This document shows, in pieces, positions 20,904-26,631 of a stretch of 64,000 nt of DNA. Where the stretch lies: positions 1 through 64,000 of the IMG/VR virus record IMGVR_UViG_3300046002_004036, one strand, 5' to 3'. The notes beneath the pieces were generated by a model that searched no databases, was not told where the DNA came from, and worked only from the letters and a program-made list of their open reading frames with translations. Every line of letters starts with the position of its first letter. Position 1 is the first letter of the stretch. This stretch comes from a virus. Position numbers and translations under genes: made by a program.

Positions 20904-21202
20904 TATTCTTGCTCGCCTTCAGAATAACGAAATATATCTTCAAGGCAAGTAAAACCTGAATCTTCTTTAATCTCAAGAGAGGATAACAAAATTCTCCAAG
21001 TTTCTTCAATATAACCTTTTGCAATTTCTGTATGTGTTACTAATTCAGAATCAATTAAAAAAGCAAGTGGCAAACCTAAATCATTATAAGAAATAAAATC
21101 CTCAAATGTTTTTTCATGTTTATGGTTTATCCACAATTCAGCAAGGATAGAACAAACATCTTCAAAAGATGTTAATTCGTTTCCATCGTTAGCGCTTGCC
21201 AT
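20903..21202 (-). CDS. hypothetical protein, paralogue of 2542..2811
   Basis: YNDLGLPLA motif. Confidence 0.8.
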   Translation of the reverse strand: MASANDGNELTSFEDVCSILAELWINHKHEKTFEDFISYNDLGLPLAFLIDSELVTHTEIAKGYIEETWRILLSSLEIKEDSGFTCLEDIFRYSEGEQE

Positions 21203-21459
21203 ATTTTACCCCATTGATTTTTATTTTTATGTTTATTAAATTCTTTTGATACTTCTCCACCTTCTAAGTATACACCACCCCATACGCCCCACTCTTTACC
21301 AGATACTCCGTTAGCAAAACATATTTTTGCAACGGGACAAGAGGCGCAGAAATTATCTATATTGGATCTTAGATCAATATCATCTTCATATTTATCAAAG
21401 TATAGATTAGTATCTAAGCCTAAACATTTTGCTTCATCTTTCCATAAATGCTGCTTCAA
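21172..21459 (-). CDS. whiB: WhiB-family transcription factor
   Basis: C-x(n)-CASCPVAKIC...GVWGG. Confidence 0.9.
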   Translation of the reverse strand: MKQHLWKDEAKCLGLDTNLYFDKYEDDIDLRSNIDNFCASCPVAKICFANGVSGKEWGVWGGVYLEGGEVSKEFNKHKNKNQWGKIWQALTMETN

Positions 21460-21462
21460 GGA

Positions 21463-21672
21463 TTACTCCTTATACTTATTTGGAATATCCCAGCCTTTTT
21501 CATCTACTTTATAAATTTTATGTAGATACCATTGACCATTAATTCTAATACCCTGCGGAGATGTGCGAGCCATTTCTGATTTCTTAAGATCTAAAATATT
21601 CCAGCCATCCCAGAGAAGATTATAATTCTTTTTAACAATTTTTTCCATTACGTCTAACTTACTTACTATCAT
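21463..21672 (-). CDS. hypothetical protein
   Basis: ORF with AAGGA RBS. Confidence 0.8.
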   Translation of the reverse strand: MIVSKLDVMEKIVKKNYNLLWDGWNILDLKKSEMARTSPQGIRINGQWYLHKIYKVDEKGWDIPNKYKE

Positions 21673-24486: not shown

Positions 24487-24762
24487 TTAAGCAGTCTTGG
24501 TTGTCAACCTGTTGTAAGTTCTTATCCTATGACAGTTTGCACAGACTACTTCACATTTTGCTATTTCTTTTTTTATTGCTGCCCACGAAAATCCATCGTG
24601 AATCATTCTAGAAACATTATATTTTTTATCTTTAAGATGATCAAAATCTAACACTATTGGATTAGTAACTCCACAATCCATACAACCAGATGCTTCTTTT
24701 ATCTCTGACAGTCTTTTTTTAAACTGCTGCTTATTGTAGTGAACCAACTCTTTGTCAGTCAT
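24487..24762 (-). CDS. small HNH endonuclease
   Basis: CMDC...LDFDH...CEVVCANCHRIRT. Confidence 0.9.
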   Translation of the reverse strand: MTDKELVHYNKQQFKKRLSEIKEASGCMDCGVTNPIVLDFDHLKDKKYNVSRMIHDGFSWAAIKKEIAKCEVVCANCHRIRTYNRLTTKTA

Positions 24763-24791
24763 ATAATGCAATTATATCAGAACAAATTAGA

Positions 24792-24875
24792 AGCCCCACA
24801 CAGGCAATTCACCTGACTTGCGCCTCGGTCATATAAATGGGTAACTAAACCATCTCTAAGGTCCTGTGTGGGGAC
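24792..24875 (-). ncRNA. candidate small structured ncRNA
   Basis: 11-bp CCCCACACAGG/CCTGTGTGGGG closing stem, two internal hairpins, own TACAAT -10 box. Confidence 0.6.
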
Positions 24876-24887
24876 AGTTATATTGTA

Positions 24888-25883
24888 CTACTTGATTTTT
24901 GATATTTGAGATTTAGCAAGTTTTAGGGCATTGCCACTTATTGCTGAATACCCAAACTCTTCAGCCTTACATTTTGTTATAGCAAAGGTAAAGAAATTAG
25001 CCACATCCTTTGATCCAACTGCTGCTATACCATAACTAAATGTAGATATGTTATAGGCCATCTTAGCAGTGTTGTTGTAGTTTGGCGTAATAGTTCCATT
25101 AGGGTTAGCAGAGAACTCTGACAAGAACCTTGATGCACCACCTGTTGTAGGCTTAACAAAGTTTCCAGCACCATTTTCAATATATGCTACGCCAAAGGCT
25201 TTTGTAAATGAAACCTCATTATAAGCAATTGATCCGTCTGTTCTTGATTGAAGCATCGCCACTCCTTGAGAGCCTGATGCTGATACAAACGCTCCAATTT
25301 TTTCATTTATATCCCCTGGAAATGCTGATGCAAATGCTTTGTTTCCAGATTTTGTCCATATATCTTTTGCAACTGCATTTAGATATGTGGTAAAAACTTC
25401 AGAAGTTCCAGATCCATCTGCTCTATATATAACAGTAATTTTTTTTGCTGGAAGTTTCATAGGATTGTCTTTTTTTAGCAGTGGATCATTCCACATACTA
25501 ATTTTCCCTGAAAAAATCTTTGCCAAGTTATCCTTAGTTAGCTTTACTTGACCTTTATATCCATCTAATTTATAACTAATTGCAATAGGTCCAGCAACAA
25601 TTGGTACGTAAACAAAGTCTTGCTTAGGCTTTACTTCTGATGCCCCATATGGAACATCGCTTATAGCAAAGTCTGCAAGGCCTAAAGCAAATTGATTCTT
25701 GCCAGAACCAGACCCATTTGGAATGTATGAAATGCTGTTGCCTGTGACTGCATATGCCACTCTACATTTTTCTACAAAGTTAAGAGCAAACGAAGAGCCT
25801 GAGCCCTTTATGTCTGCTGCTTCAGCGGTTGGTATAAATAAAACACTAGATAATAGTGCTATGATAATGAACTTGATCTTCAT
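24888..25883 (-). CDS. pstS: phosphate ABC transporter substrate-binding protein
   Basis: signal peptide, GSGSS, GSGSG, RADGSGTS. Confidence 0.92.
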   Translation of the reverse strand: MKIKFIIIALLSSVLFIPTAEAADIKGSGSSFALNFVEKCRVAYAVTGNSISYIPNGSGSGKNQFALGLADFAISDVPYGASEVKPKQDFVYVPIVAGPIAISYKLDGYKGQVKLTKDNLAKIFSGKISMWNDPLLKKDNPMKLPAKKITVIYRADGSGTSEVFTTYLNAVAKDIWTKSGNKAFASAFPGDINEKIGAFVSASGSQGVAMLQSRTDGSIAYNEVSFTKAFGVAYIENGAGNFVKPTTGGASRFLSEFSANPNGTITPNYNNTAKMAYNISTFSYGIAAVGSKDVANFFTFAITKCKAEEFGYSAISGNALKLAKSQISKIK

Positions 25884-25991
25884 AACAATAAGTATACTTT
25901 AATATGCATATGAATATTGTTATATACAGCAAACTATGAGTTAATTTTAAATGAATATTGAGCAGTTTTAGACTTGCTCAGGTCTATTATA

Positions 25992-26408
25992 TTACTTAAT
26001 CGTGATTGTTTTAGGCTTTTTATCTTCTGGAATAATACGATCAATACTAATATTGAGCATACCATCCTTTAGATCTGCCCCAGTTACTTCCATGTATTCA
26101 CCAAGAGCAAAAGATCTTGCAAATTTTCTACTTGCAATACCTTTGTGGACTATCTCAGCATCTACAACTTCCGTGATTTCACCCTTGATTACAACTGTTC
26201 CATTATCTACTGAAACATCAATGTCGTCTTTTGTGAATCCCGCAACTGCAATAGACAAACGATATGTATCTTCATCTAGTTTTAGAATGTCATATGGAGG
26301 ATATGAGTGTGAATTGGTTTGGTGTGCACTGTTAAGACGGGCTAGGTCTCTATTAAAGCCAATAAAAAAAGGATCATTGAATAGATCCATTGCGAACTGT
26401 GTTACCAT
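25992..26408 (-). CDS. hsp20: small heat-shock protein (IbpA-like)
   Basis: YPPYDI, AVAGF, HKGIASRKF, DGML. Confidence 0.95.
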   Translation of the reverse strand: MVTQFAMDLFNDPFFIGFNRDLARLNSAHQTNSHSYPPYDILKLDEDTYRLSIAVAGFTKDDIDVSVDNGTVVIKGEITEVVDAEIVHKGIASRKFARSFALGEYMEVTGADLKDGMLNISIDRIIPEDKKPKTITIK

Positions 26409-26409
26409 T

Positions 26410-26459
26410 TTATTCCCCTTTCAAGCGAATAAGTTAATGTACCCCCGTAGGCAGTACAT
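26410..26459 (-). promoter_or_regulatory. ROSE-like RNA thermometer in hsp20 5'UTR
   Basis: UUAUUCGCUU-GAA-AGGGGAAUAA hairpin hides the SD; a second hairpin lies 5' of it. Confidence 0.65.
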
Positions 26460-26478
26460 ATATATTATACCAAACATT

Positions 26479-26554
26479 TGGAGCAAAAGACGAGATTTGA
26501 ACTCGCAACATCTACCTTGGCAAGGTAGTACTCTACCAATTGAGTTACTTTTGC
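26479..26554 (-). tRNA. tRNA-Gly(GCC)
   Basis: cloverleaf, CTACC-TTGCCAA-GGTAG, encoded CCA. Confidence 0.95.
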
Positions 26555-26558
26555 ATTG

Positions 26559-26631
26559 CTGGTCTGGTAGGACTCGGACCTACGACTTGCGAATTAACAG
26601 TTCGCCACTCTACCAACTGAGTTACAGACCA
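26559..26631 (-). tRNA. tRNA-Asn(GTT)
   Basis: cloverleaf, GCGAA-CTGTTAA-TTCGC; T-loop TCCGAGT; no CCA. Confidence 0.9.

What the first reader, a model, noticed from the sequence alone, without database searches (positions are those of the whole stretch)
24792..24887. Separately promoted ~80-nt structured RNA between pstS and an HNH nuclease
Seen (- strand): TACAAT-N6 followed directly by GUCCCCACACAGG...CCUGUGUGGGGC, a GC-rich closing stem in AT-rich DNA. It encloses ACCU/AGGU plus hairpins AUGG/CCAU and UGAC/GUCA, forming a multi-way junction, and loop GCAA could pseudoknot with UUGC. The predicted start coincides with the 5' end of the stem. The downstream HNH gene has its own TGATATAAT. 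The ~58-nt interior is too large for a terminator and there is no tRNA T-loop. Inference: a discrete phage ncRNA (protein decoy, ribozyme, packaging-type RNA, or partner of the neighbouring minimal HNH).
Basis: partly seen in the sequence, partly recalled or inferred. Interest (0 to 1): 0.72.

Follow-up and report, generated by a model that had tools for sequence, protein, structure and literature searches.

The report
Phage small RNA antisense to ribosome helix 69
A separately promoted 83-nt structured RNA, conserved in hundreds of freshwater actinobacterial phage contigs and matching no known RNA family, carries an invariant stretch complementary to the helix 69-70 region of its host-type 23S ribosomal RNA, which suggests but does not prove that the phage targets the ribosome with an RNA.

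Summary
On the minus strand, TACAAT (24882-24887) is followed after 6 nt by an 83-nt RNA (24793-24875). It is closed by an 11-12 bp GC-rich stem.

It belongs to a large family. P1 shows compensatory changes at 7-8 of 11 pairs. Every genomic context keeps a -10 box 6-7 nt upstream. Rfam 15, ARAGORN and INPHARED phage genomes give no match.

The fold is a three-way junction: P1, P2 (AUGG/CCAU with an invariant 9-nt loop) and a variable P3.

The usual gene order is tRNAs, hsp20, RNA, then a leaderless 91-aa HNH gene. pstS is an insertion. Divergent relatives keep the RNA without an adjacent HNH gene.

New lead: the invariant 23 nt (ACCUUAG-N-GAUGG-NN-UAGUUACC) are antisense to actinobacterial 23S rRNA G1909-U1931 (helix 69 and linker). 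This gives 19-22 Watson-Crick pairs in every variant. J3/1 (GAAUU) is complementary to the helix-70 loop just downstream.

Best reading, about 40%: a trans-acting RNA that pairs with host 23S rRNA. First-stage readers flagged the same RNA in at least five other genomes, and none of those notes was followed up.

The parts
24882..24887 (-). -10 promoter element TACAAT of the RNA gene. The predicted start is at or next to G24875.
   Evidence: A TAYAAT-type hexamer lies 6-7 nt before P1 in nearly every locus, whatever the upstream sequence (hsp20, pstS, hairpin, tRNA). The exceptions are L121/L141, where it lies about 45 nt upstream with a TAAAAT 9 nt from P1, L086 (TACAAG) and L183.
24793..24875 (-). 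83-nt structured small RNA, a three-way junction of P1, P2 and P3.
   Evidence: Model R1 scores it 95 bits and finds a single copy in the 98-kb genome.
24863..24873 (-). P1 5' strand, CCCCACACAGG.
   Evidence: It pairs with 24794-24804. 7-8 of 11 pairs carry compensatory changes.
24794..24804 (-). P1 3' strand, CCUGUGUGGGG.
24840..24862 (-). Invariant stretch ACCUUAG-A-GAUGG-UU-UAGUUACC (J1/2, P2 5' strand, P2 loop). It is antisense to 23S rRNA G1909-U1931 (helix 69 plus linker).
   Evidence: 22 of 23 nt match, score 36 against shuffles of 21.4 +/- 2.4, 0 of 1000 shuffles as high. All 24 versions keep 19-22 Watson-Crick and 0-2 G-U pairs.
24836..24854 (-). P2 hairpin, GAUGG / CCAUU, with the 9-nt loop NNUAGUUAC.
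   Evidence: The loop UAGUUAC is invariant even in loci that were selected only on P1.
24811..24829 (-). P3 hairpin, ACC-G-AGGC-GCAA-GUCA-GGU. It is variable across the family.
   Evidence: Alternative P3 forms in types 1, 2 and 3. The three-pair core GGC/G(C,U)C of type 2 shows only G-C/G-U exchange, with no double changes.
24805..24810 (-). J3/1, GAAUUG. It is complementary to 23S AAUUC in the helix-70 loop.
   Evidence: 72 of 84 variants keep at least 4-5 nt of complementarity at that site. Random 23S windows reach this level in 1.5% of cases.
24780..24792 (-). U-rich tail after P1, a weak terminator-like tract.
   Evidence: There are 5.2 T in the first 10 nt on average, against about 30% in the genome. 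T-runs are 3-4 long.
24771..24779 (-). Extended -10 TGATATAAT of the HNH gene.
   Evidence: It begins 14-17 nt after P1, and the start codon lies 7-9 nt after it in most loci, so the mRNA is leaderless.
24487..24762 (-). 91-aa HNH-type nuclease gene (CxxC...DFDH...N...CANCH).
   Evidence: Alignment. tblastn gives 43-60% identity to annotated HNH endonucleases of Streptomyces, Mycobacterium and Gordonia phages.
24888..25883 (-). pstS-like phosphate-binding protein gene. It is an insertion between hsp20 and the RNA.
   Evidence: PBP_like_2, E = 1.4e-35. It is present upstream of the RNA in only 17 of 183 loci.
25992..26408 (-). hsp20 gene, the usual upstream neighbour of the RNA.
   Evidence: HSP20, E = 2.3e-18. 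It is the upstream neighbour in 151 of 183 loci.
26479..26631 (-). tRNA-Gly(GCC) and tRNA-Asn(GTT) genes.
   Evidence: Same-strand tRNAs lie 0.5-1.5 kb upstream of the RNA in many loci.

Best explanation
Shown: this is a real, independently transcribed gene for a stable 83-nt RNA. It folds into a three-way junction closed by an 11-12 bp helix that joins its 5' and 3' ends. It is a core gene of a large clade of AT-rich freshwater phages. These carry WhiB, so they are probably actinobacterial phages.

Inferred: the RNA acts in trans by base pairing with the host large-subunit rRNA. Its single-stranded J1/2 pairs with 23S C1925-U1931. The 5' strand of P2 pairs with the 3' strand of helix 69 (C1920-C1924). 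The P2 loop plus the next C pairs with G1909-A1916, which is the helix-69 loop and the top of its stem. J3/1 pairs with A1937-C1941 in the helix-70 loop.

P2 is roughly the reverse complement of helix 69, and both loops are 9 nt. Binding could therefore begin as a loop-loop kiss and spread along the flanking single strand, as in natural antisense RNAs.

The likely target is nascent or free-50S 23S rRNA. The consequence is not known. It could block 50S maturation or subunit joining, which would shut off the host. It could instead cover a region that actinobacterial toxins cut.
For: Family and structure:
- There are 84 distinct sequences.
- P1 covaries.

Promoter and strand:
- A -10 box lies 6-7 nt upstream of P1 in nearly all contexts.
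- G-U pairs are frequent: 46 of 55 at the base of P2 and 20 of 55 in P3.
- This strand folds better than the opposite strand in 72 of 84 sequences.

Selection:
- Nucleotide identity is 0.92 for the RNA, 0.78 for hsp20 and 0.80 for HNH.
- 46 distinct loci share an identical 85-nt RNA while their flanks are 0.67-0.73 identical.

Complementarity to 23S rRNA:
- The window RNA matches 22 of 23 nt, and 0 of 1000 shuffles score as high. Type 1 gives 5 of 1000.
- Every one of the 24 versions keeps 19-22 Watson-Crick and 0-2 G-U pairs with at most one mismatch. All substitutions inside the paired blocks create G-U wobbles, not mismatches.
- 19 of 20 complementary positions are at least 90% conserved, against 12 of 38 other interior positions (Fisher p = 3e-6).
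- The variable RNA positions fall at the unpaired spots of the duplex.
- GAUGG and the terminal CC match the actinobacterial version of helix 69. The exact 23-mer occurs in 60 of 121 genomes of the class. All 65 sites found in two other phyla have CGGUC instead.
- J3/1 is complementary to the adjacent helix-70 loop (p about 0.015).
- cofold gives a net -5.7 to -8.7 kcal/mol, against about 0 for interior shuffles.
Against: - No experiment or transcript data exist. The pairing is a computed complementarity that I found after several other target ideas had failed, so the statistics are partly post hoc.
- Helix 69 is a folded hairpin inside a ribonucleoprotein particle. Half of the RNA's antisense stretch is itself held in P2, so both partners must open.
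- From memory of E. coli, U1911, U1915 and U1917 are pseudouridines and position 1915 is N3-methylated. That would weaken pairing with mature rRNA.
- A phage needs ribosomes, so blocking them has a cost.
- rRNA is very abundant, so stoichiometric action would need very high expression.
- Pairing explains about 28 of 83 nt. It does not explain the near-invariance of J2/3 and P3 within type 1.
- The cofold model opens P1, which is probably unrealistic.
Confidence: 0.4

Rival explanations
1. It is a protein-binding scaffold or decoy RNA, like Y RNA, 6S or VA RNA. The junction and the P2 loop form a platform for a host or phage protein. The similarity to antisense helix 69 is then a relic of origin or a coincidence.
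For: - The 5' and 3' ends are locked in a long helix, which is typical of stable RNP RNAs and not of seed-pairing sRNAs.
- Almost every nucleotide is constrained within type 1, including J2/3 and the P3 loop. Pairing to rRNA does not explain that.
- No enrichment of complementary sites was found in the phage genome.
Against: - No candidate partner was found. There is no TROVE/Ro in the phage or in 41 genomes of the putative host order.
- There is no host homologue of the RNA to mimic in 151 plus 151 actinobacterial genomes.
- It does not explain why conservation tracks complementarity to 23S, or why the lineage-specific helix-69 bases are matched.
Confidence: 0.25
2. It is functionally tied to the neighbouring HNH nuclease, in one of two ways. 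At the DNA level, the helix-69-like segment would be the nuclease's recognition or immunity site, since helix-69 rDNA is a known homing-endonuclease target. At the RNA level, the RNA would be a guide, activator or inhibitor of the 91-aa HNH protein.
For: - The RNA lies directly upstream of the HNH gene in 78 of 80 HNH loci, at a fixed spacing of 14-17 nt to its -10 box.
- RNA type is largely congruent with the HNH tree: 14 changes, against 49 for shuffled labels.
- rDNA coding for 1915-1938 is a hot spot for homing endonucleases, including I-PpoI (PMC2602781). From memory, I-PpoI shares the beta-beta-alpha-metal fold with HNH enzymes.
Against: - Divergent relatives keep the RNA with the HNH gene 1.6-3 kb away (L112, L134) or not found in 10 kb (L116).
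- GSHPx is inserted between the two in about 8 loci.
- L322 has the HNH gene without the RNA.
- HNH homologues in Vibrio and Streptomyces phages sit in tRNA arrays without this RNA.
- A 91-aa HNH core has no obvious sequence-reading or RNA-binding domain.
- The J3/1 complementarity is not collinear in DNA, and the G-U-preserving substitutions point to RNA-level pairing.
Confidence: 0.15
3. The functional transcript comes from the opposite (+) strand. It would then be a sense mimic of helix 69, acting as a decoy for a factor that binds or cuts helix 69.
For: P1 and P2 are palindromic enough to form on either strand. The + strand carries GGUAACUA..CCAUC.CUAAGGU, which is close to real helix 69. 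Nucleases that cut helix 69 exist (title of PMC13189344, listed).
Against: - G-U pairs would become A-C mismatches, including one in the middle of the 4-bp type 1 P3 stem.
- The + strand folds less well in 72 of 84 sequences.
- The conserved -10 box, the U-rich tail and all neighbouring genes are on the minus strand.
- The mimic would shift the helix-69 loop by one base and alter its 3' half.
Confidence: 0.07
4. It is only a cis element: a terminator or 3' stabiliser of the upstream hsp20 or pstS mRNA, or a promoter-proximal antitermination RNA for downstream genes.
For: In most loci the hsp20 stop codon abuts the -10 box with no other terminator between them. hsp20 transcripts must therefore run into P1. 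P1 is followed by a U-enriched tract.
Against: - A 58-nt interior with invariant loops and junctions is not needed for termination.
- The RNA has its own promoter in every context.
- It persists when the upstream gene changes.
- Each downstream gene has its own promoter.
Confidence: 0.05
5. It is a small self-cleaving ribozyme or a ligand-binding aptamer of a new class.
For: It is a three-way junction with conserved junction strands and an invariant loop.
Against: - No match to any ribozyme or riboswitch model in Rfam 15, even at E <= 10.
- P1 is too stable to act as a switch helix.
- The downstream gene has its own promoter and a leaderless mRNA.
- No loop-loop or pseudoknot covariation was seen.
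Confidence: 0.05

Closest known systems
Natural antisense RNAs that start with a loop-loop kiss (CopA/CopT of plasmid R1, RNA I/RNA II of ColE1); comparison from general knowledge
   Same: It has a hairpin that is the reverse complement of the target hairpin. Next to it lies a single-stranded stretch complementary to the target's flank. It is a small, stable RNA with its own promoter.
   Different: Those RNAs are transcribed from the opposite strand of their target gene and act on an mRNA or a primer. This RNA is encoded in trans on a phage, and the apparent target is host rRNA. Its complementarity is interrupted by single-base bulges, and it is embedded in a three-way junction.
Archaeal and eukaryotic snoRNAs/sRNAs that pair with pre-rRNA (C/D and H/ACA guides)
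   Same: It is a small structured RNA with a terminal stem and bipartite complementarity to conserved rRNA. Helix 69 is itself a guide-RNA target in those domains.
   Different: There are no conserved C/D boxes: the UGAUGG resemblance fails in half the family, and CUGA is absent from type 1. There is no H/ACA pocket or ACA box, and no partner proteins are known in bacteria. Membership is not met.
Bacterial and phage Y RNAs (Rsr/Ro partners)
   Same: The size is similar, the 5' and 3' ends form a long stem, and the RNA sits near tRNA genes.
   Different: There is no Rfam Y RNA or YrlA match. There is no TROVE gene in the phage or in 41 genomes of the putative host order.
phi29-type packaging RNA (pRNA)
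   Same: It is a phage-encoded RNA with a three-way-junction core, its own promoter and a closing 5'/3' helix.
   Different: The two loops are not complementary, so there is no inter-molecular loop-loop pairing. The P3 loop varies. The RNA is much shorter. From memory, pRNA belongs to small protein-primed podophages, whereas this genome is about 100 kb.
Homing-endonuclease targets in helix-69 rDNA (I-PpoI, I-Vdi141I; PMC2602781)
   Same: The same universally conserved sequence (23S 1909-1941 here, 1915-1938 there) lies next to a nuclease gene of the beta-beta-alpha-metal type.
   Different: Here the sequence is an interrupted copy in the antisense direction, inside an expressed phage RNA gene. 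It is not an intron insertion site in rDNA. The HNH protein is a 91-aa core without recognisable DNA-reading modules.

Membership tests
tRNA / tRNA-like | Cloverleaf with a 7-bp acceptor stem and D, anticodon and T arms; recognised by ARAGORN or Rfam RF00005 | tested here: not met
   ARAGORN and Rfam find the three true tRNAs of the window but not this element. It has an 11-12 bp closing stem and no T-loop.
Any Rfam 15 family (riboswitches, ribozymes, sRNAs, CRISPR repeats) | Covariance-model match | tested here: not met
   No hit on the element at E <= 10 in the window. No hit at E <= 1 in six divergent homologous loci.
Intrinsic terminator (only) | Short GC-rich hairpin with a 3-8 nt loop followed by a U-tract | tested here: not met
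   The terminator scan does not call it. The interior is 58 nt and conserved. The tail is U-enriched but has runs of only 3-4.
Y RNA | Ro/Rsr (TROVE) partner gene in the same genome or in the host | tested here: not met
   PF05731 is absent from the phage and from 41 genomes of the putative host order, while the control genomes ring.
23S rRNA GTPase-associated-centre mimic (H42-44) | Detectable similarity in sequence and structure to the L11-binding three-way junction | tested here: not met
   R1 with filters off gives no hit at the GAC of L404. The junction lengths also differ.
Type III toxin-antitoxin RNA | Tandem repeats of the antitoxin RNA upstream of an endoribonuclease toxin | tested here: not met
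   The RNA is single-copy. The neighbour is an HNH-type protein, and one HNH locus lacks the RNA.
Trans-acting antisense RNA against 23S rRNA (proposed) | Extended, conserved, lineage-matched complementarity to the target | tested here: met
Trans-acting antisense RNA against 23S rRNA (proposed) | Physical pairing with 23S rRNA in infected cells, with a functional consequence | not testable with these tools
   This needs crosslinking or ligation assays, binding assays and mutants.
HNH endonuclease (the neighbouring gene) | CxxC...DH...N...CxxCH beta-beta-alpha-metal motif | tested here: met
   C27, C30, D41, H42, N49, C74, C77 and H78 are invariant in the alignment. tblastn hits annotated phage HNH endonucleases. 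There is no Pfam hit at E <= 0.01.

The most novel reading that the evidence does not exclude
The RNA and the minimal 91-aa HNH protein form a two-part RNA-guided nuclease. The 23-nt antisense stretch would direct cutting of the host 23S rDNA (its non-template strand) or of 23S rRNA at helix 69. The genomes of the putative host order that I sampled usually carry this site only once, so one cut could disable host ribosome production. That would be by far the smallest RNA-guided nuclease system known.
Probability: 0.05. Interest if true: 0.95.

Novelty: new variant of a known kind. Interest (0 to 1): 0.78.

Why it matters
Low-GC freshwater Actinobacteria are very abundant in lakes worldwide (PMC10202952), and their phages are little known. 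This RNA is the most conserved gene in its neighbourhood, across phages whose shared proteins are only 30-60% identical. It has no Rfam family.

If it pairs with helix 69-70, it would be the first phage RNA I know of that is aimed at ribosomal RNA. Helix 69 forms the B2a intersubunit bridge. It contacts A- and P-site tRNAs and ribosome recycling factor (PMC2602781). The adjacent helix-70 loop is cut by MazF-mt3 and MazF-mt6 (PMC5408214).

That would open a testable route to RNA-based control or protection of ribosomes during infection. It would also be a bacterial-virus counterpart to rRNA-pairing small RNAs, which I know only from archaea and eukaryotes. Whatever the function turns out to be, the family deserves an Rfam entry.

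Tried and rejected
- Rfam at the gathering threshold and at E <= 10 gave nothing on the element.
- blastn and megablast against INPHARED phages found only HNH gene matches and noise.
- My genome contigs pattern scan was too loose. None of the 121 pattern matches (120 loci) had a P1, so the scan was wasted.
- R1 searches of 151 genomes of the putative host order and 151 of the class gave only two noise hits, which I inspected.
- BLAST of the RNA against 61 host-order genomes gave short chance hits. One recurrent hit lies inside a coding gene on the other strand. BLAST missed the 23S match because its longest exact block is 8 nt.
- I looked for targets of the P2 loop in the phage genome and found no enrichment of GTAACTA-type sites.
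- GTPase-centre mimicry of 23S H42-44 fits only in topology and has no covariance-model support.
- The anticodon arm of the phage tRNA-Asn is not similar to P2.
- The Y RNA idea fails because no TROVE gene is found.
- CRISPR-repeat mimicry (an RNA anti-CRISPR) rested on a remembered resemblance of GUCCCCAC...GUGGGG to type I-E repeats. Rfam CRISPR-DR models do not hit the element. I did not pursue it further, so it is not excluded.
- Recent spread of the RNA by homing or gene conversion is not shown. RNA type follows the HNH tree, and the AU test for one type 1 clade gives p = 0.056, which is borderline.
- Assigning the host through pstS is uninformative, at only 40-46% identity. The actinobacterial host rests on the WhiB-like ORF and on the HNH relatives. 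The acI/Nanopelagicales assignment is an inference.
- A first RNAduplex shuffle test timed out. I replaced it with local-alignment and cofold tests.

Full report
**1. The observation**

Read on the minus strand, the pstS-like ORF ends with TAG at 24888-24890. TACAAT follows at 24882-24887, then six bases, then G at 24875. The strands CCCCACACAGG (24863-24873) and CCUGUGUGGGG (24794-24804) pair and enclose 58 nt. The element is therefore 24793-24875, 83 nt.

A U-enriched tract follows P1. TGATATAAT lies at 24771-24779, and 8 nt later comes the ATG of a small HNH-type gene (24760-24762). RNAfold gives a three-way junction with a modest z-score of -2.1 for the 106-nt stretch. ARAGORN and Rfam find three real tRNAs in the window but nothing here.

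**2. It is a large family, not a chance hairpin**

All 32 distinct interiors are clearly homologous.
- A second scan, for the P2 hairpin, again hit the limit and brought in members with different stems.
- A protein scan with the HNH neighbour found at least 556 relatives. 78 of the best 80 loci carry the RNA.
- In all I collected 84 distinct RNA sequences.
- The window's 98-kb record has one copy.

**3. Structure**

On 66 distinct sequences, 7 of 11 P1 pairs show changes on both sides and 99.6% of cells are paired. Slid controls give 37-57%. A second alignment of 55 type 2 sequences gives 8 of 11.

P2 (GAUGG/CCAUU) has one pair with a double change (A-U to G-C in L064 and L096) and several G-C/G-U exchanges. 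Its 9-nt loop is NNUAGUUAC, and UAGUUAC is invariant even among loci that were selected only on P1.

P3 is a variable hairpin. Type 1 is ACC-G-UGGC-GCAA-GUCA-GGU. Type 2 has GGC, then N, a four-base loop and U, then GCC, with different extensions. A third form has CCGU...ACGG. Its three-pair core GGC/G(C,U)C does not covary, so P3 rests on these alternative forms.

**4. Strand, promoter and ends**

G-U pairs are common on this strand: 46 of 55 at the base of P2, 20 of 55 in P3, and several in P1. They would be A-C mismatches on the other strand. This strand folds better than the opposite strand in 72 of 84 sequences.

A TAYAAT-type hexamer lies 6-7 nt before P1 in nearly every locus, whatever lies upstream. 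The upstream contexts are the hsp20 stop codon, the pstS stop codon, a terminator-like hairpin, or a tRNA 3' end in L123. The few exceptions are L121/L141, L086 and L183.

After P1 the first 10 nt hold 5.2 T on average, with runs of 3-4. That makes a weak terminator-like tail.

In most loci the hsp20 stop codon abuts the -10 box. hsp20 transcripts must therefore also run into P1, so the RNA may arise both from its own promoter and as an mRNA 3' end.

**5. Context and host**

The usual order is same-strand tRNAs, hsp20, the RNA, then a 91-aa HNH gene.

- hsp20 is upstream in 151 of 183 loci, and the HNH gene is downstream in 159 of 183.
- pstS is inserted between hsp20 and the RNA in 17 loci, including this window.
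- A glutathione-peroxidase-like gene is inserted between the RNA and the HNH gene in about 8 loci.
- The HNH mRNA is leaderless. Its -10 box begins 14-17 nt after P1, and the start codon lies 7-9 nt after the box in most loci.
- Divergent relatives (L112, L116, L134) share the early gene block at 30-60% amino-acid identity. They keep the RNA but place it elsewhere, and no HNH gene is adjacent.
- L322 has the HNH gene without the RNA.

The RNA is thus an autonomous gene.

A WhiB-like ORF near 21288 on the minus strand points to an actinobacterial host. So do the HNH protein's best matches, which are in Streptomyces, Mycobacterium and Gordonia phages. The 36% GC content and the lake origin suggest acI/Nanopelagicales, but that is an inference. 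pstS identity of 40-46% to genomes of that order does not settle it.

The RNA was not found in 151 genomes of that order or in 151 of the class.

**6. Selection**

- Pairwise nucleotide identity is 0.92 for the RNA, 0.78 for the hsp20 3' part and 0.80 for HNH.
- 46 distinct loci share an identical 85-nt type 1 RNA, while their flanks are 0.67 and 0.73 identical.
- RNA type mostly follows the HNH tree: 14 changes, against 49 for shuffled labels. The AU test for a single type 1 clade gives p = 0.056.

Purifying selection fits this better than recent transfer, but exchange is not excluded.

**7. The new lead: complementarity to 23S rRNA**

I looked for targets of the invariant loop and found that 23S rRNA of the putative host order contains GGUAACUAUAACCAUCCUAAGGU. 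By homology with E. coli numbering (from memory), this is G1909-U1931. It covers the top of the helix-69 stem, its loop, its 3' strand and the linker to helix 70.

The RNA stretch ACCUUAG-N-GAUGG-NN-UAGUUACC is its reverse complement, in three blocks of 7, 5 and 8 bp.

- In the window RNA, 22 of 23 target bases are matched, with one bulge on each strand.
- The local-alignment score is 36, against 21.4 +/- 2.4 for shuffles, and 0 of 1000 shuffles reach it. Type 1 gives 5 of 1000, and L131 gives 22 of 1000 when G-U counts as a mismatch.
- All 24 distinct versions keep 19-22 Watson-Crick and 0-2 G-U pairs, with at most one mismatch.
- Variants that lack the bulged N give a contiguous 10-11 bp duplex.
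- Substitutions inside the blocks (A to G opposite U, C to U opposite G) all preserve pairing.
- 19 of 20 complementary positions are at least 90% conserved, against 12 of 38 other interior positions (p = 3e-6).
- The bases that distinguish actinobacterial helix 69 from other phyla are the ones matched. The exact 23-mer is in 60 of 121 genomes of the class. All 43 sites in the phylum of a Legionella handle and all 22 in the phylum of a Flavobacterium handle read CGGUC instead of CCAUC.
- J3/1 (GAAUU or GGAAU) lies across the junction from J1/2. It is complementary to AAUUC or AUUCC, which lie 5-6 nt further 3' in 23S, in the helix-70 loop. 72 of 84 variants keep this. Random 23S windows do as well in 1.5% of cases.
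- cofold predicts a net gain of 5.7-8.7 kcal/mol, against about 0 for interior-shuffled controls.

**8. Reading**

P2 is roughly the reverse complement of helix 69, and both loops are 9 nt. Next to it lies a single-stranded J1/2 that is complementary to the target's flank. This is the architecture of natural kissing antisense RNAs, but here it is encoded in trans on a phage.

I therefore rank a trans-acting anti-23S RNA first, at about 0.4. The step from complementarity to function is inference.

The consequence is open:
- It could block 50S maturation or subunit joining. Helix 69 forms bridge B2a (PMC2602781).
- It could shield a region that actinobacterial MazF-mt3 and MazF-mt6 cut in free 50S subunits, at UU^CCU in helix/loop 70 (PMC5408214). 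J3/1 would cover that site.

The caveats are these:
- The find is partly post hoc.
- Both hairpins must open for full pairing.
- Mature helix 69 is modified and protein-bound.
- rRNA is very abundant.
- Pairing does not explain the constraint on J2/3 and P3.

**9. Rivals**

- A protein-binding scaffold or decoy RNA: 0.25.
- A functional tie to the HNH gene: 0.15. Helix-69 rDNA is a known homing-endonuclease hot spot (PMC2602781). But adjacency breaks in distant relatives, and the non-collinear J3/1 match and the wobble-preserving changes favour RNA-level pairing.
- A plus-strand helix-69 mimic: 0.07.
- A purely cis terminator or stabiliser: 0.05.
- A new ribozyme or aptamer: 0.05.

**10. Known relatives and novelty**

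No Rfam family matches, and there is no tRNA, Y RNA (no TROVE gene), pRNA-like loop pairing or C/D or H/ACA features. Full-text searches found no report of a phage small RNA complementary to 23S rRNA. First-stage readers of this scan flagged the same RNA in at least five other genomes, and none of those notes was followed up.

I class it as a new RNA family. It is a new variant of the trans-acting antisense kind, and if the pairing is real its target class is unprecedented.

Noticed in passing
window 26406-26469 (-); L112 10349-10406 (-): The hsp20 leader of a related contig (L112) gives a weak Rfam ROSE_3 thermometer hit (29.7 bits, E = 0.035, below the gathering score of 43). This echoes another first-stage note about a ROSE-like element on this window's hsp20.
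   Followed up: partly
window 24888-25991 (-): pstS is an insertion. Its last codons and stop (AAAATCAAGTAG) copy the hsp20 3' end that normally abuts the RNA promoter. The hairpin GAGCAA..CUGCUC that precedes the RNA promoter in other contigs lies here between hsp20 and pstS (25958-25981).
   Followed up: partly
window 24760-24779 (-) and 3978 (+): Several genes have TGATATAAT 6-8 nt before the ATG with no Shine-Dalgarno sequence, so their mRNAs are leaderless. Most other genes have AGGAG leaders.
   Followed up: partly
window ~21175-21480 (-): A WhiB-like ORF (C...CxxC...C...GVWGG). It marks the phage as an actinophage.
   Followed up: no
L194 (Vibrio phage D260), L195 (Streptomyces phage JimJam): Homologues of the small HNH protein in cultured phages sit inside tRNA gene arrays.
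   Followed up: partly
L322 1300-1560: One related contig keeps the HNH gene and its promoter but has no RNA gene. Only the AT-rich spacer that normally follows P1 remains.
   Followed up: partly
L021, L045, L054 and similar loci: A 251-aa glutathione-peroxidase-like gene is inserted between the RNA and the HNH gene in about 8 contigs. The RNA neighbourhood is a hot spot for accessory genes (pstS, GSHPx, M23 and S8 peptidases, a methyltransferase).
   Followed up: partly
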